Part shown: positions 539 to 61,625 of the stretch, one piece after another
Numbering within the stretch: the stretch's first letter is position 1
Layout of the letters: every line of letters begins with the position of its first letter
NCBI GenBank assembly: GCA_964398885.1
Contig: CAYNOU010000004.1
Location: forward strand, 1,257-65,256
DNA from: an uncultured Candidatus Cloacimonadota bacterium
GTDB lineage: Bacteria; Cloacimonadota; Cloacimonadia; JGIOTU-2
Length of the DNA: 64,000 nt
Direction: 5' to 3'
The notes under the pieces: model-generated
The model's database searches: none
What the model was told of the DNA's origin: nothing
Seen by the model: the letters and a program-made list of their open reading frames with translations, nothing else
Position numbers and translations under genes: made by a program

Positions 539-1510
539 ATGTTGAAACGAAGTGTAAATCCTCCCGATGTATCGGGGGGAAAAAATATTAAATACACAAA
601 AATAATTATATCTTTTGCTGCTATTATGTTTGTATTTGTAGGCTCAATCTTTGCAGATAATGAAGCCTCGGGTGGCGAAAGTGGAGCTTTCTTGCGGATA
701 CCAATTGGAGCAAGGTCTGCTGGTATGGGTAATGCGTTTACTGGTGTTGCAGATGATGTAAATGGTCCGTATTTCAATCCTGCCGGATTAGCACAGATTA
801 CTAACTCCAGAATTGGTGGTATGTATAATATTATGACCCTGGATAGACAAAACTATCAAGCTACAATTGTTATGGGTAATGAAAGAGGTAGAGCAGTTGC
901 CCTGACATTTACCAGCTTTGGTGTAAGTGACATTATTGAATGTGTAGATGGTGTGCCAACTGGAGAAAAGTTTGATGATACGGAAATGGCATTTGGATTA
1001 TCTGCTGGTGCAAAGTTGTTACCAATATTAAGTCTTGGCGGAACTGCAAAATATATCAATCATACAATTTATGATAATAAGGGAGCTGGTTTTGCCTTTG
1101 ATTTAGGAACCATGTTGCTTTTAAATCCTATACGGATAGGTGCAAGCATAAGTAATCTTGGCGGAAAATTGACTTGGGATACTGACTCTAAAAATGAAGA
1201 TGAAATTCCAACAACTTTACGAGCAGGTGCATCAATCCTTTTACCTCTTGCTGCAATTGATTTATTAGCTGCTGCAGATATTTCTCAAACTTTTATTGAT
1301 GAAGAAGATGCAGAAGGTGACTTTAAACTACATTTTGGAGCAGAAGCCTGGATGGCTGATGTTTTAGGGGTCCGTGCTGGTTTAGATGGAGAAGACCTTA
1401 ATTTCGGTGCTTCTCTTAAATTAAAAAAGTTAAGATTTGACTATGCCTTTTGTCCTGATGCTCTTGATGAAGGACCAACTCATAAACTTGGTGTAGAGAT
1501 TCAATTTTAA
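539..1510 (+). CDS. Outer-membrane beta-barrel protein, PorV/PorQ-like (T9SS-associated) family
   Basis: Signal-like N-terminus. Motif GARSAGMGNAFTGVADDVNGPYFNPAGLA is typical of PorV/LptO-like OM proteins. Aromatic C-terminal end (EIQF). A GC palindrome lies in-frame at 563-577 (NPPDVSGG). Confidence 0.45.
   Translation: MLKRSVNPPDVSGGKNIKYTKIIISFAAIMFVFVGSIFADNEASGGESGAFLRIPIGARSAGMGNAFTGVADDVNGPYFNPAGLAQITNSRIGGMYNIMTLDRQNYQATIVMGNERGRAVALTFTSFGVSDIIECVDGVPTGEKFDDTEMAFGLSAGAKLLPILSLGGTAKYINHTIYDNKGAGFAFDLGTMLLLNPIRIGASISNLGGKLTWDTDSKNEDEIPTTLRAGASILLPLAAIDLLAAADISQTFIDEEDAEGDFKLHFGAEAWMADVLGVRAGLDGEDLNFGASLKLKKLRFDYAFCPDALDEGPTHKLGVEIQF
563..577. repeat. GC-rich palindrome TCCCGATGTATCGGG inside CDS (in-frame)
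   Basis: Member of the TCCCGA-N-TCGGGA hairpin family seen at 9 or more places in the window. Confidence 0.6.
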
Positions 1511-1523
1511 AATTGTAAGATAT

Positions 1524-1575
1524 ATTAAAAATACGGCTTTCTGTAATATAAATCACATTAAGCCGTTTTTTTCAA
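1524..1575 (+). terminator. Rho-independent terminator
   Basis: Stem ACGGCTT...AAGCCGT followed by a T7 run directly after the stop of CDS 539..1510. Confidence 0.5.
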
Positions 1576-1656
1576 AGCAATACAAAACTTGACAAAAAAG
1601 ATATTATTTTTAAATTTTAATAAGAAAATAAAACTTTGTTTTTTGACATATACATA

Positions 1657-2032
1657 GGGGGTGACAGGCTTCGACAGGGACTGTGGGTACAGGAATAGCA
1701 TATCAGGGAGATTACCTATCCTGTCTGCTGGAGGTAAATCCTTCGGATGAAAAAATGGTAATGCAAAATCTAATTGCAGATGAAAATCTCGCATTAGCTG
1801 CCTAAAAAGGTAGCTACATTTGACTTGATGTTGCCATTTGCATCTCTTCAAATGTCGTTCAAAATGGCTCTAATATTGTGATGTCTATAAGCAGTATTGA
1901 AATTTATAGACTGGTTCTGTAAGGATTTGTTTGTTGTTCTGAACAGAATAAGAAAATCACAACAGACTAAGTATGTAGAAGTTCTTGTATCCAAATCTCT
2001 GGACGCGGGTTCAACTCCCGCCACCTCCACCA
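1657..2032 (+). ncRNA. ssrA: tmRNA (SsrA)
   Basis: 5' end GGGGGUGACAGGCUUCGACAGGG. 3' end GGACGCGGGTTCAACTCCCGCCACCTCCACCA forms a tRNA-like T-arm plus CCA. The internal tag ORF ends ...ADENLALAA* (stop at 1803-1805). TTGACA promoter-like hexamers lie upstream. Confidence 0.85.
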
Positions 2033-2038
2033 GTCTTC

Positions 2039-2056
2039 GTTCCGATAAATCGGAAC
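2039..2056. repeat. Palindrome GTTCCGATAAATCGGAAC immediately 3' of tmRNA
   Basis: 8-bp perfect arms, a variant of the TCCCGAT..ATCGGGA family. May act as a terminator or recombination site. Confidence 0.45.
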
Positions 2057-59150: not shown

Positions 59151-59900
59151 TTAAGGATAATGAAGCTCTTTTTGAAAAGGAAATTGAAATAAGAAACGAT
59201 TTATAGGAAAATAAAATATAAAATAATTTTCTTTTCTATATTTTGGGAAATATACTCTACCACTTATTATTTGATTCGGCCCTAAACTTGTCTTTCGTAG
59301 AGTTGTTGATTTCCATTTATCTCTTATATTATTAAATCTTTTTATTTTTGTCTTATGCCTTTCTTCCATTTCTTGTTTTCTTATTCTATCTTCCTCGCTT
59401 TGTCGTTGTTCTTCTTTCATTTCTTCGCGAGTTTTTTTCTTTCCAAAATTGGCAATAAAACCTAAAAAGTTTAAAAATCCTACCGCTACATCCATCCCTT
59501 TATCTCCCGCATAATGAGCATATTCCCGCGATATTTCTTTTTCAATTTCTAGTATTTTTTCTTCAGGATCAATAGCATATACTTCTTCTGCAGTCTTTCT
59601 AACGTAAGTTAAATCTTCTAGTTTAATATATGGAGTATAGTAAAATTGGCTTGGAACAATCATTATTGTATCGTTTTTTTGATTAGCAATTTCTATATAA
59701 AATATCAAATGTTTTCTATCAGCTTCTTCAAATGCAATAGCAACGGCAATTTCATTGTCATTATAACTAACTACTTCTTTTCCTAAGTGCCAATGTATTT
59801 CTTTTGATATTGGATGTAAACGAATAATTGGTCTTGGTCTTGGTGCACATGAAAGTAATATAATGCAAGTAAAAAGCACAATAAATAATAATTTCTTCAT
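59151..59900 (-). CDS. Hypothetical lipoprotein with charged C-terminal helix
   Basis: Lipobox LLSCA (start trimmed to MKKLLF). C-terminal KKTREEMKEEQRQSEEDRIRKQEMEERHK. Confidence 0.4.
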   Translation of the reverse strand: MKKLLFIVLFTCIILLSCAPRPRPIIRLHPISKEIHWHLGKEVVSYNDNEIAVAIAFEEADRKHLIFYIEIANQKNDTIMIVPSQFYYTPYIKLEDLTYVRKTAEEVYAIDPEEKILEIEKEISREYAHYAGDKGMDVAVGFLNFLGFIANFGKKKTREEMKEEQRQSEEDRIRKQEMEERHKTKIKRFNNIRDKWKSTTLRKTSLGPNQIISGRVYFPKYRKENYFIFYFPINRFLFQFPFQKELHYP

Positions 59901-59924
59901 CTTTTCATCAAATCCTTTTATTTT

Positions 59925-60060
59925 TCTCAAAGGTTAATTTTTCTTTTCCTTTATCATCATCCTCCTTATAAATAAAGAATTCTTCAACCTCTCTGTAAAA
60001 AAGTCCACTTAATGAAGTAATTTTATTCCCTTCTAATCCCTAATTATCTAATTCTTTATC
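59925..60060 (-). pseudogene. Remnant duplicate of the 3' end of gene 57760..58923
   Basis: About 80% identical DNA to 57775-57945 (..AAAGGTTAATTTT.CTTTTCCTTTATCATC..TAAAGAATTC.TCAAC..) with an internal deletion and a stop. Confidence 0.45.
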
Positions 60061-60207
60061 TTCTCCAGCGGTCATATGATACTATTTGAACAATAGACCA
60101 GTTCATTATATTATATTTTTAAAACATTCTATATTACAATTACTAAAAATTCAAAACATATCTTATACTATAGTATGCTCAGTCATCATTATACATATCC
60201 AATCGTG

Positions 60208-61509
60208 CTATGGCGCCCAGACAAGAACCCTACTTTCTTTTTGAACTGGCTCTAAACTAATAATATAAGAATTTCTAATCCTATCAGCAACCCTCTCCCC
60301 TTCTTCATTATTATAAAAAAGTTCTCCAAGAACTTCATTCTTTTGAACAAAATCACCAATTTTTTTGTATAATTTAAGCCCTGCGGTATAATCAATTTTA
60401 TCAGAAATTTTCCTTCTGCCTGCACCTACATCAATCAATGCCCAGCCTATTTCTCTGCTGTTAATATCTTTAACATACCCTTCTTTTTCTGCAATAATTG
60501 GAAGAACATATTTTGCTTTTCCTAAGATTGAATAGTCATTAACAATACCTGGATTACCACCTTGTAATTCTATGAATTTAGCAAATCTTTGTAATGCTTT
60601 CCCAGATTTTATTGTTTGCATTATCATTTCTTCAGCTTGATTCTTAGTCTTAACAATTTTACCTATAAGCAACATTTCAGTAAGTAAGGCAAATGTAACT
60701 TCTTTCAAATCCTCTTTATAATTTCCTTTTAGAAAATCAATACATTCAATTATCTCAACGCTATTTCCAACACAAGAGCCCAAAGGTGAATCCATATTAG
60801 TAAATAAAATTATTACCTTTTTACCAAATTTTGCACCTATCTTACTAAACGATTCAGCCAAATTTTTTGCAGTATCCAAATCTTTGGCAAATGCCCCTTC
60901 TCCAACTTTAAGGTCAATAACCAAACCATCAATTCCAGAAGCAATCTTTTTACTCATAATGCTCGCAGTCATAAGTGGAATGCTTTCAACTGTTCCAGTT
61001 ACATCACGCAGAGCATAGATTCTTCTATCTGCAGGAACAATCTCTTTGGATTGACTAATGATTGCAAAACGGTTTTGCAAAACCAATTCCTTGAATCTTT
61101 TCAAAGGTATTTGAGTTTGAAATCCGGGTATTGATTCAAGTTTATCAAGAGTTCCTCCTGTATGCCCTAAACCTTTTCCAGAAATCATTGGTACGAAAAG
61201 ACCACATTCTGCTGCAATGGGTGCCAAAACTATTGAAACTTTATCTCCAACCCCACCTGTGCTATGTTTATCAATAAATCTGCCATTTTTATTCGCAAAT
61301 TTTATTACTTCACCTGAAGAAATGTATTCTTGCGTTAACCAGTAAGTTTCATCAAAATCCATACCTTTAAGAAGAATTGCCATAAGCATTGCAGACATCT
61401 GATATTCAGAGATATTATCTCTTAGATATTCAGTTAAGAAAAAATGGATTTCTTCTTTACTTAACTTTTTACCATCTCTTTTTTTGATAATTAATTCAGT
61501 AGGATTCAT
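60208..61509 (-). CDS. Pyrimidine-nucleoside (thymidine) phosphorylase
   Basis: HSTGGVGDKVS and TGGTLDKLESIPG motifs. The C-terminal ...LVWAP* is encoded by the GC repeat CTTGTCTGGGCGCCA (60211-60225). Confidence 0.85.
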   Translation of the reverse strand: MNPTELIIKKRDGKKLSKEEIHFFLTEYLRDNISEYQMSAMLMAILLKGMDFDETYWLTQEYISSGEVIKFANKNGRFIDKHSTGGVGDKVSIVLAPIAAECGLFVPMISGKGLGHTGGTLDKLESIPGFQTQIPLKRFKELVLQNRFAIISQSKEIVPADRRIYALRDVTGTVESIPLMTASIMSKKIASGIDGLVIDLKVGEGAFAKDLDTAKNLAESFSKIGAKFGKKVIILFTNMDSPLGSCVGNSVEIIECIDFLKGNYKEDLKEVTFALLTEMLLIGKIVKTKNQAEEMIMQTIKSGKALQRFAKFIELQGGNPGIVNDYSILGKAKYVLPIIAEKEGYVKDINSREIGWALIDVGAGRRKISDKIDYTAGLKLYKKIGDFVQKNEVLGELFYNNEEGERVADRIRNSYIISLEPVQKESRVLVWAP

Positions 61510-61524
61510 TATTAAAACTTTCTC

Positions 61525-61625
61525 GGTCTCGGCCAGTCTTGGCTCCCGATGTATCGCCCGTCTGGGCGCCGAGCCTGAGGAGACAGGCGTCCAGCCCGTC
61601 TAGTCGCCGAGACTGAACGGAAAGA
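61525..61625. repeat. Compound GC-rich repeat cluster (GGTCTCGGCCAGTCTTGGCTCCCGATGTATCGCCCGTCTGGGCGCCGAGCCTGAGG...CCCGTCTAGTCGCCGAGACTGA)
   Basis: Contains TCCCGATGTATCG (same as the copy at 563-577) and two GTCTGGGCGCCGAG-type units. Lies in the 5' leader of the phosphorylase gene. Confidence 0.6.

What the first reader, a model, noticed from the sequence alone, without database searches (positions are those of the whole stretch)
563..61625. Dispersed family of short GC-rich palindromic repeats (TCCCGA-N-TCGGGA core) including exact 16-18-bp copies
In a genome that is strongly AT-rich, palindromes of the form (G/A)TCCCGAT(A/G)TATCGGGA(C/T) recur at 563, 6766 (variant), 19639, 28065, 31321, 32193, 35541, 37548, 55262 and 61544, with a diverged copy (GTTCCGATAAATCGGAAC) at 2039. 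Three copies (32193, 35541, 37548) share an identical 16-mer (TCCCGATATATCGGGA) and have different flanks. A given 16-mer is expected about 3e-5 times in 128 kb of two-strand sequence, so this is far beyond chance. Some copies sit at promoters:
- 37548 lies between a TTGACA −35 and the yicC start.
- 32193 lies just upstream of the tRNA-Thr promoter.
Other copies sit inside genes. This pattern fits either a REP/BIME-like mobile palindromic element or a binding site for an undescribed global DNA-binding protein.
Basis: seen in the sequence. Interest (0 to 1): 0.8.

Follow-up and report, generated by a model that had tools for sequence, protein, structure and literature searches.

The report
Short GC-rich hairpin repeat family
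The window carries a real family of very short GC-rich hairpin repeats (TCCCGA-loop-TCGGGA). They resemble the REP elements of E. coli, are typical of this bacterial lineage (probably Cloacimonadota), and sit between genes, inside small mobile elements and occasionally in frame inside genes.

Summary
TCCCGATATATCGGGA occurs exactly three times (32194, 35541, 37549) with unrelated flanks, none expected by chance. Close variants lie at 562, 2039, 6765, 19637, 28065 and 31319. The copies at 55262 and 61544 are partial, embedded in other GC-rich repeats.

The same stem recurs in other Cloacimonadota assemblies: 17.7 extra copies per 100 kb, against 0 in 853 kb of control DNA from other phyla. About 75% of 44 copies are intergenic in DNA that is 84% coding.

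Stems are kept, partly through matched changes in both arms, while loops vary from 3 to 7 nt. There is no T-tract. Copies are missing at the same positions in relatives, and no target duplications are seen.

The hairpin usually caps a longer, copy-specific stem. It is a module in at least four unrelated MITE-like elements. In a Neomarinimicrobiota genome it caps 16S rRNA helices.

My best reading is a REP-like hairpin repeat that works as single-stranded nucleic acid and spreads at the DNA level. A single-strand (HUH-type) transposase is a possible mobiliser, but none was found. The operator or global DNA-binding-site reading is not supported. I rate it a new variant of a known kind, of moderate interest.

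The parts
559..580 (+). Variant hairpin TCCTCCCGAtgtaTCGGGGGGA with a T.G wobble. It lies in frame in the n-region of the signal peptide of a PorV/PorQ-family gene and encodes NPPDVSGG.
   Evidence: (-15.5 kcal/mol)
2039..2056 (+). Diverged copy GTTCCGAtaaaTCGGAAC with a compensated C>T / G>A change in both arms. It starts 7 nt after the 3' end of tmRNA and is absent at that position in L129.
6765..6785 (+). Subfamily copy ACCCCCGAtttacTCGGGGGT, in frame inside the T9SS C-terminal sorting domain of ORF 2698..6918 (encodes QPPIYSGV).
19637..19659 (+). TGTCCCGAaaacaaaTCGGGACA, the first module of MITE-like element A (about 19625-19958), which splits an Mth938-like gene.
28065..28080 (+). TCCCGACTTGTCGGGA (CUUG loop on the sense strand), inside MITE-like element B (27988-28163, 18-bp terminal inverted repeats TTAGTGTCTGTCCGTAAA).
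31309..31363 (+). Nested composite. The outer palindrome CCGCCAG...CTGGCGG encloses TCCTGATATATCGGGA (1 mismatch) plus two further right half-sites at 11-nt spacing.
   Evidence: empty form CCGCCAGCTGGCGG in L075
32193..32210 (.). Exact copy, GTCCCGATATATCGGGAC, 31 nt upstream of the TTGACA box of tRNA-Thr. It lies just outside the stretch conserved with L129 (homology starts at 32217).
35541..35556 (.). Exact copy in frame near the 3' end of ORF 32407..35676 (TPPDISGL). The window has 9 bp more than the orthologues in L129 and L122 (IPDSL / TPDSL). Strain L001 has C>T at 35542.
37547..37566 (.). Exact copy, AATCCCGATATATCGGGATT, directly after the TTGACA box upstream of yicC. It is part of a 27-bp insertion relative to L129, with TGACAAT at 37543 and again at 37570.
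55251..55292 (.). Second copy of the CCGCCAG...CTGGCGG composite, enclosing CTCCGagaCGGAG and the weak variant TCCCGAaaaTCGGGT.
61544..61556 (.). Left arm only (TCCCGATGTATCG), fused to a GTCTGGGCGCCGAGCCTGA-type GC-rich composite repeat. A related full copy is in L008 at 1426.
   Evidence: (family D4)

Best explanation
This is a lineage-specific family of very short (16-20 nt) GC-rich stem-loop modules, REP-like in behaviour. The consensus is (R)TCCCGA-N4-TCGGGA(Y), with TATA the commonest loop, and there is a sister subfamily TCCCCGAT-N3-ATCGGGGA.

Shown:
- The stem, not the loop or the spacing, is what is conserved.
- Copies are overwhelmingly extragenic.
- They often cap a longer, copy-specific stem.
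- They are modules inside several unrelated MITE-like elements and nested palindromes.
- They are present or absent at the same positions in related genomes.
- No target-site duplication is seen in general.

Inferred:
- The unit acts as a hairpin in single-stranded nucleic acid. Copies lie in spacers between co-directional genes that are probably transcribed, and the CUUG loop always faces the sense strand. A REP-like role in transcripts, as a stable helix cap or a 3'-exonuclease barrier, is therefore the most likely host-level effect.
- The family spreads at the DNA level by insertion or short-patch replacement, preferentially at the apex of existing hairpins or palindromes and in other tolerant places. 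These include in-frame coding positions, because the 16-mer has no stop codon in any frame.
- A mechanism without target duplication, acting on single-stranded DNA (an HUH/Y1 RAYT-like enzyme), would fit. No such enzyme was found in the DNA available, so this step is speculative.
For: Not chance:
- The family is far more frequent than shuffles predict.

Lineage-specific:
- 14 of 117 genome hits for the 16-mer are Cloacimonadota, including 8 sites in one MAG.
- Extra family copies run at 17.7 per 100 kb in those loci and 10.9 per 100 kb in the window, against 0 in 853 kb of control loci.

Extragenic:
- 33 of 44 copies lie in 16% non-coding DNA, P=1.4e-17.

A hairpin rather than a duplex site:
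- Loops of 3-7 nt sit on the same stem.
- Both arms change together: TTCCGA/TCGGAA, TCCCCGA/TCGGGGA, CCCCCGA/TCGGGGG.
- Predicted stems are stable, -8.5 to -15.5 kcal/mol.

Strand-specific:
- The CTTG loop is on the sense strand in 7 of 7 cases.
- Single stem mismatches are G.T on the sense strand in 7 of 9 cases.

Insertion polymorphism:
- yicC promoter: +27 bp relative to L129, and absent in L122 and L123.
- Coding copy at 35541: +9 bp in frame.
- The module is present in L121 but not in the window or L008 at the same hairpin tip of MITE-A, and other GC hairpins are swapped in and out of that element.
- The palindrome CCGCCAG|CTGGCGG is empty in L075 and filled in the window.

Caps on longer stems:
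- Flanks pair better than mismatched controls, -6.5 against -4.2 kcal/mol, P=1.6e-5.

No target duplication:
- The longest flank repeats match random expectation.

A module in unrelated elements:
-.

A precedent in the same superphylum:
- Caldithrix abyssi has a short 18-nt REP-like palindrome (PMC5317091).
Against: - No RAYT or IS200-like HUH motif occurs in the 218 kb of Cloacimonadota DNA examined.
- The copies share no GTAG or CGTC tag. Only a few have one: L129 at 13470, L080 at 4606 and L008.
- The units are shorter than classical REPs.
- No expression data exist, so the RNA-level role is inference.
- The wobble bias is not significant (P=0.09).
- Sense strand and lagging-strand template coincide in this window, so RNA and single-stranded-DNA explanations cannot be separated.
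- The genome-wide copy number is extrapolated, not counted.
Confidence: 0.55

Rival explanations
1. The palindrome is a duplex binding site for a dimeric DNA-binding protein, either an operator of a global regulator or a parS/NBS/matS-like chromosome-organising site near the terminus.
For: - It is a perfect 16-bp palindrome with three exact copies within 5.4 kb and within 5.3 kb of a dif-like site.
- Most family members keep a 4-nt centre.
- Two copies adjoin TTGACA boxes.
Against: - Loops of 3, 5 and 7 nt, and matched one-base insertions in both arms, keep the hairpin but not the half-site spacing.
- The promoter copies are absent from the same promoters and dif regions of L129, L122 and L123.
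- Only 1 of 28 classifiable intergenic copies is between divergent genes.
- Copies occur inside MITEs, rRNA helices and a riboswitch.
- The extragenic bias is unlike parS or Noc sites.
Confidence: 0.08
2. These are independent, non-mobile RNA signals (terminators or mRNA-stabilising hairpins). Selection for one optimal stable hairpin made them converge on the same sequence.
For: - Most copies lie between co-directional or convergent genes.
- One follows tmRNA directly.
- In other phyla the same 16-mer is typically the tip of a classical terminator hairpin with A/T tracts.
- The CUUG loop faces the sense strand in 7 of 7 cases.
- The same hairpin is used as a helix cap in rRNA and in a riboswitch.
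Against: - The window's copies have no T-tract, whereas a canonical terminator with a unique stem exists at 29552.
- Distances from stop codons are broad, with a median above 100 nt.
- Most genes in the window have no such hairpin.
- Exact identity of 16 nt across loci and species, and +9 and +27 bp indels rather than point changes, are hard to reach by convergence.
- Some copies are in frame inside genes.
Confidence: 0.15
3. The hairpin is not a unit of its own. It is only a subterminal or internal part of one or a few MITE/IS families, and solo copies are decayed remnants of those elements.
For: - Several copies are clearly inside larger repeats: MITE-A at 19.6 kb, MITE-B at 28.0 kb, the mini-MITE CACCCTGTKAAAT...ATTTMACAGGGTG, the L129/L080 element, and the GTCTGGGCGCCGAG composite.
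- The window holds transposase remnants at 30-31 kb.
Against: - The host elements have unrelated ends and interiors, yet share the identical module.
- Homologous copies of one MITE differ in whether and where the module is present.
- The exact copies at 32194, 35541 and 37549 have no repeat-derived flanks, and the indels relative to the orthologues are only 9-27 bp.
Confidence: 0.12

Closest known systems
REP / BIME elements of Enterobacteria and Pseudomonas (repetitive extragenic palindromes, mobilised by RAYT Y1 transposases)
   Same: - Short GC-rich imperfect palindromes at high density.
- Strongly extragenic, mostly between co-directional or convergent genes.
- Found in mosaic clusters with other motifs.
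- Occasional intragenic copies.
- Lineage-specific sequence.
- No target duplications.
- Proposed to act as RNA or single-stranded-DNA hairpins (PMC3733652).
   Different: - Units are 16-20 nt rather than 20-40 nt.
- There is no common GTAG or CGTC tag.
- No RAYT was found in the DNA at hand.
- The conserved part is the cap of the hairpin while the outer stem is copy-specific. In REPs the whole stem is conserved.
- Copies occur at the apices of other palindromes, and in a related phylum in rRNA helices.
18-nt palindromic repeat of Caldithrix abyssi (aAACCGTTgaAACGGTTt), FCB superphylum
   Same: - A very short exact palindrome with tens of exact copies.
- Intergenic preference and avoidance of divergent (promoter) spacers.
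- Hints of strand specificity.
- Not part of longer repeats.
- Function unknown (PMC5317091).
   Different: - The sequence is unrelated.
- The Caldithrix motif has a fixed 2-nt centre.
- No variable loops, nesting in MITEs or intragenic copies are reported for it.
GC clusters of yeast mitochondrial DNA, and repetitive hairpin elements of sponge and fungal mitochondrial genomes
   Same: GC-rich palindromic hairpins scattered in an AT-rich genome, with presence/absence polymorphism and an unknown mobilising enzyme (PMC4478555 and PMC2800124, seen as title and abstract only). From my own knowledge, not from these papers, such clusters also occur in intergenic DNA, in variable rRNA regions and in frame in a protein gene.
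   Different: - They are organellar, 30-60 bp long and unrelated in sequence.
- This is an analogy only, with no claim of homology.
Rickettsia palindromic elements (RPE)
   Same: Palindromic repeats that also insert in frame into protein-coding genes (own knowledge; RPEs are mentioned in PMC3733652).
   Different: RPEs are about 100-150 bp, CGTC-tagged and add whole peptide segments. Here the intragenic additions are only 3-8 codons.

Membership tests
REP (repetitive extragenic palindrome) | Short GC-rich imperfect palindrome able to form a stable stem-loop | tested here: met
   6-9 bp perfect stems, -8.5 to -15.5 kcal/mol. The unit (16-20 nt) is shorter than the usual 20-40 nt.
REP (repetitive extragenic palindrome) | Many dispersed copies per genome, specific to the lineage | tested here: inconclusive
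   10.9 per 100 kb in the window, 17.7 per 100 kb in other Cloacimonadota loci and 0 in 853 kb of controls.
REP (repetitive extragenic palindrome) | Extragenic location, mainly downstream of genes or between co-directional genes | tested here: met
   33 of 44 copies are intergenic against 16% non-coding DNA, P=1.4e-17. Of these, 24 are tandem, 3 convergent, 1 divergent and 5 have only one flanking gene within the locus.
REP (repetitive extragenic palindrome) | Conserved GTAG (or CGTC) tetranucleotide at one foot of the stem | tested here: not met
   Flanks of 44 copies show no common tag. GTAG appears only in the L129/L080/L069 sub-element and CGTC only in L008.
REP (repetitive extragenic palindrome) | Cognate RAYT (Y1 HUH transposase) gene flanked by the repeats | tested here: inconclusive
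   No HUH...Y motif ORF was found in the 218 kb examined. One gene per genome would easily be missed, so whole genomes are needed.
MITE | Terminal inverted repeats plus a target-site duplication of fixed length | tested here: not met
   The palindrome itself could count as inverted repeats, but flanking direct repeats are no longer than random. The single TGACAAT duplication at the yicC copy is an isolated case.
Operator / palindromic protein-binding site (TF, ParB/Noc/MatP-like) | Fixed half-site spacing, and conservation at the same positions in relatives | tested here: not met
   Loops are 3-7 nt and both arms carry matched indels. The copies are absent from the same promoters and dif region in L129, L122 and L123.
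Intrinsic (Rho-independent) terminator | GC-rich hairpin followed by a U-tract, close to a gene's 3' end | tested here: not met
   In the 27-42 kb stretch that was scanned, no family copy is followed by a T-tract on the sense strand. A canonical terminator is present at 29552. Distances to stop codons are broad.
DNA uptake sequence (DUS/USS-like) | The half-site is itself highly over-represented as single copies | tested here: not met
   TCCCGA occurs 15 times and TCGGGA 9 times in the window, mostly inside the palindromes. Neither is among the over-represented hexamers.
Known RNA families (Rfam 15) | Match to a curated covariance model | tested here: not met
   Only tmRNA and two tRNA-Thr genes match in the window. 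Sensitive scans of 19400-20000 and 31170-32300 found nothing.

The most novel reading that the evidence does not exclude
The conserved 16-nt cap may be a minimal mobile unit of its own, shared across FCB-group phyla (Cloacimonadota, Neomarinimicrobiota, Ignavibacteria). It would copy itself, without target duplication, into the single-stranded apices of existing hairpins. It then ends up capping MITE stems, other palindromes, 16S rRNA helices 6 and 44, and tolerant in-frame coding positions. That would be a new, very small class of mobile hairpin with an unknown, possibly single-strand-specific, enzyme.
Probability: 0.2. Interest if true: 0.75.

Novelty: new variant of a known kind. Interest (0 to 1): 0.5.

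Why it matters
Cloacimonadota are uncultured or barely cultured, and I found no description of their repeats in the papers searched.

A defined, abundant hairpin family gives three practical things:
- a marker for the lineage and for strain typing in metagenomes;
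- an explanation for odd GC-rich islands, small in-frame insertions and disrupted genes in these AT-rich genomes;
- a tractable case for the open question of how very short palindromic repeats without an obvious transposase spread.

The apparent preference for the tips of existing hairpins, including rRNA helices in a sister phylum, would be mechanistically informative if confirmed.

Tried and rejected
- **Rfam.** The gathering scan of the window and sensitive scans of 19.4-20.0 kb and 31.2-32.3 kb found nothing beyond tmRNA and tRNA. This also rules out a hammerhead-like reading of CTGATGAG at 31.78 kb.
- **Terminator reading.** Rejected for lack of T-tracts.
- **Target-site duplications.** Flank repeats are the same as random.
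- **HUH/Y1 transposase motif.** A scan of all Cloacimonadota loci found none. ORFs flanked by hairpins in L095 look like ordinary housekeeping genes by eye (GNAT-like, RlmH-like), not transposases. No family search was run on them.
- **Conserved flanking tag or shared flanks.** None in general.
- **Terminus-specific function.** The relatives keep the dif-like site but lack the palindromes.
- **Viral contigs.** 16 single, unrelated hits, mostly terminator-like, with no sign of phage involvement.
- **Metagenome search for yicC neighbourhoods.** It gave only three useful relatives. The other 77 loci served as a negative control.
- **Wobble-orientation test for RNA-level selection.** 7 against 2, not significant.
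- **Literature.** Searches for the 16-mer and for Cloacimonas plus palindromic repeats found nothing.
- **tRNA reading of the L084 and L046 copies.** ARAGORN did not call them as tRNAs.

Full report

Yes. TCCCGATATATCGGGA occurs exactly at 32194, 35541 and 37549, and none of 100 dinucleotide-preserving shuffles had any copy. Allowing up to 3 mismatches gives 7 sites against 0.09 expected, adding 562, 2040, 28065 and 31319. The pattern TCCCGA-N0-12-TCGGGA gives 5 hits against 0.01 expected, adding 19639 with a 7-nt loop.

The window is 33% G+C. It holds only 18-19 perfect GC-rich hairpins, and about 8-9 of them have a CCCGA/TCGGG or close-variant stem.

Two listed sites are weaker:
- 55262 is a 5-bp-stem variant nested in a CCGCCAG...CTGGCGG palindrome.
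- 61544 keeps only the left arm, inside another GC-rich composite.

**2. Where does the window come from?**

It encodes type IX secretion components. Identical genes lie on JGI metagenome contigs from samples 3300031586, 3300031643, 3300031650 and 3300031651.

Fourteen of these are Candidatus Cloacimonadota, including 7 loci with 8 sites from one MAG, RS_16_45. Four are Neomarinimicrobiota. A 280-bp non-coding element of the window is 84% identical to two RS_16_45 contigs. I infer the organism is a Cloacimonadota relative. This is inference, not proof.

**3. Is the family specific to the lineage?**

I counted copies of [CT]CCCGA-N3-7-TCGGG[GA], leaving out the 16-mer that had selected the loci.

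| DNA set | Copies |
|---|---|
| 107 kb of Cloacimonadota loci | 19 (17.7 per 100 kb) |
| The window | 7 (10.9 per 100 kb) |
| Three closest yicC relatives (L122, L123, L129) | 3 |
| 853 kb around yicC genes of other phyla | 0 |

Most single hits in other phyla are tips of ordinary terminator hairpins with A/T tracts. That is what a chance GC-rich palindrome would look like in 596 Gb.

**4. Anatomy**

*Conserved stem, variable loop.* The stem is constant while loops vary: TATA, TGTA, TTTA, TTAA, CTTG, CATG, TGAA, AAACAAA and others. Both arms change together: TTCCGA/TCGGAA, TCCCCGA/TCGGGGA, CCCCCGA/TCGGGGG. This fits a hairpin and not a duplex site with fixed half-site spacing. Predicted RNA stems are -8.5 to -15.5 kcal/mol.

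*Location.* Of 44 copies in 218 kb of Cloacimonadota DNA that is 84% coding, 33 are intergenic (P=1.4e-17). Of these, 24 lie between co-directional genes, 3 between convergent genes and 1 between divergent genes. The remaining 5 have only one flanking gene within the locus.

*Intragenic copies.* Three window copies are inside genes and in frame:
- 562 in the n-region of a PorV-like signal peptide (NPPDVSGG);
- 6765 in a T9SS sorting domain;
- 35541 (TPPDISGL).

The 16-mer has no stop codon in any frame.

*Not terminators.* No T-tract follows the copies in the 27-42 kb stretch that was scanned, whereas a canonical terminator with a unique stem sits at 29552.

*Caps on longer stems.* The flanks of a copy pair with each other better than flanks taken from different copies (-6.5 against -4.2 kcal/mol, P=1.6e-5). 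The conserved part is therefore typically the cap of a longer, copy-specific stem.

**5. Evidence for gain and loss**

- *yicC promoter.* Relatives L129, L122 and L123 keep the dif-like site and the ttcTTGACA box upstream of yicC but lack the palindrome. Relative to L129 the window has 27 extra bp, CCCGATATATCGGGATTAAC plus a second TGACAAT.
- *Coding copy.* At 35541 the window has 9 bp more, in frame, than L129 and L122. A 99.4%-identical strain (L001) carries a C>T change in that copy.
- *Within MITE-A.* In three homologous copies of a roughly 300-bp element, GC-rich hairpins come and go at fixed helix positions. L121 has the 16-mer where the window and L008 have the loop of another hairpin. 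The window has TCCCCGCGTACGCGGGGA where the others have 5 nt.
- *Nested palindrome.* CCGCCAG|CTGGCGG is empty in L075, but in the window (31309, 55251) it is filled at its centre with TCCCGA-type hairpins.
- *L129 cluster.* L129 has a 390-bp hairpin-packed insertion after RNase R that the window and L122 lack.

Flanking direct repeats are no longer than random, so there is no general target-site duplication.

**6. A module shared by unrelated elements**

The hairpin is part of at least five different repeats:
- MITE-like element A (window 19625-19958, with relatives in L008, L121, L069, L048 and L080);
- element B (27988-28163, 18-bp terminal inverted repeats);
- a 55-nt mini-element CACCCTGTKAAAT...ATTTMACAGGGTG, found in three Cloacimonadota species and one Ignavibacteriaceae MAG;
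- an element shared by L129 and L080;
- a GTCTGGGCGCCGAG composite.

**7. Strand information**

The asymmetric loop CTTG lies on the sense strand in 7 of 7 cases where the direction of transcription is known (P=0.008). Single stem mismatches are G.T on the sense strand in 7 of 9 cases (P=0.09).

In this window the sense strand is also the lagging-strand template. RNA-level and single-stranded-DNA explanations therefore cannot be separated.

**8. An unexpected extension**

In the Neomarinimicrobiota locus L007, five family hairpins lie in the rRNA operon. TCCCGACTTGTCGGGA forms the tip of the 16S V1 helix (position 73) and also the tip of the helix near position 1470. In L037 the 16-mer lies inside a cobalamin riboswitch. 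The module therefore serves as a helix cap in stable RNAs as well.

**9. Interpretation**

*Best reading (confidence about 0.55).* This is a REP-like family of very short hairpin modules. They function or persist as single-stranded hairpins, are tolerated mainly outside genes, and spread at the DNA level by insertion or short-patch replacement, preferentially at the apices of existing hairpins. Three features fit a single-strand-specific mechanism such as an HUH/Y1 (RAYT-like) enzyme: no target duplications, a conserved stem, and strand bias. No such gene was seen in the 218 kb available, and there is no common GTAG or CGTC tag. Membership of classical REPs is therefore not established.

*Rivals.*
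- The operator or global DNA-binding-site idea fails on spacing, on conservation in relatives and on location.
- Convergent terminators or stabilisers fail on missing T-tracts and on 16-nt identity arriving through indels.
- "Just MITE fragments" fails because the host elements are unrelated, and homologous copies of one element differ in whether they carry the module.

**10. Comparison with known systems**

The closest are REP/BIME elements (PMC3733652), the short 18-nt REP-like palindrome of Caldithrix abyssi in the same superphylum (PMC5317091), and, by analogy only, yeast mitochondrial GC clusters and Rickettsia palindromic elements. I found no description of this motif or of Cloacimonadota palindromic repeats.

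*Verdict.* The feature is real and not an artefact. It is a new variant of a known kind, of moderate interest, with a less likely but interesting reading as a minimal hairpin-apex-targeting mobile unit.

Noticed in passing
window 37447-37475: A dif-like XerC/D site, ATGTCTGATAATGTATATTATGTAAACTT, lies directly after the stop of the TPR gene. Its 16-nt core is identical to E. coli dif as I remember it, and the site is conserved in L122, L123 and L129. GC skew flips near 40 kb and genes converge at about 41.2 kb, so the window spans the replication terminus.
   Followed up: partly
window 2600-32290 (tRNA-Thr at 18263-18336 and 32295-32369): In relative L129, tmRNA, a small ORF and tRNA-Thr are adjacent. 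In the window about 29.6 kb lies between them, with a duplicated tRNA-Thr (97% identical) and transposase remnants at 30.0-31.2 kb. This looks like one or two genomic islands integrated at tRNA-Thr or tmRNA. The box AAAACTTGACAA precedes tmRNA and both tRNA-Thr genes.
   Followed up: partly
window 19625-19958: MITE-like element A splits an Mth938-like gene. Removing the element plus one ATGAAA restores ...GIFDENVEILIIG.... In other genomes the same element sits exactly at gene starts, flanked by direct repeats GGATTTTCATATGAAA (a ribosome-binding site plus ATG AAA). It carries small ORFs whose TGA stops overlap the next ATG (ATGA), as if it targets start regions and keeps the downstream gene translated.
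   Followed up: partly
window 27988-28163: A MITE-like element with 18-bp terminal inverted repeats TTAGTGTCTGTCCGTAAA, holding four different hairpins, lies between two paralogous ORFs (27148..27981 and 28207..29529).
   Followed up: no
window 31765-31790, 32023-32044 (reverse), 61558-61583, 61596-61621: A second GC-rich repeat family, CCGTCTGGGCGCCGAGMCTGA..., is partly fused to TCCCGA hairpins, as it also is in L008. One copy contains CTGATGAG, but no ribozyme or other Rfam family matches.
   Followed up: partly
window 30503-30538: A perfect 36-bp palindrome, GTATTTGGAATACCCAgatcTGGGTATTCCAAATAC, lies inside a truncated IS256-family (Zn-binding variant) transposase ORF.
   Followed up: no
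L007 870, 1531, 2498, 2614, 4011: A Neomarinimicrobiota rRNA operon carries five TCCCGA-loop-TCGGGA hairpins. The identical 16-mer TCCCGACTTGTCGGGA caps two different 16S helices (positions 73 and 1470) and also occurs in 23S.
   Followed up: partly
L129 9800-10000 and 13440-13830: The closest relative has other palindromic insertions at places where the window has none. One is a roughly 100-bp long inverted repeat (CCCGCGAAATAC...GTATTTCGCGGG) upstream of yicC. The other is a 390-bp hairpin cluster with ends ATGAGTCCGCTATAAA after RNase R.
   Followed up: partly
L017 25-300 and L084 1-420: There are tandem arrays whose repeat unit contains a family hairpin. The unit is 93 nt in a Neomarinimicrobiota MAG. 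In a Melioribacteraceae genome it is about 170 nt, looks tRNA-like and ends in a terminator. ARAGORN calls no tRNA there.
   Followed up: no
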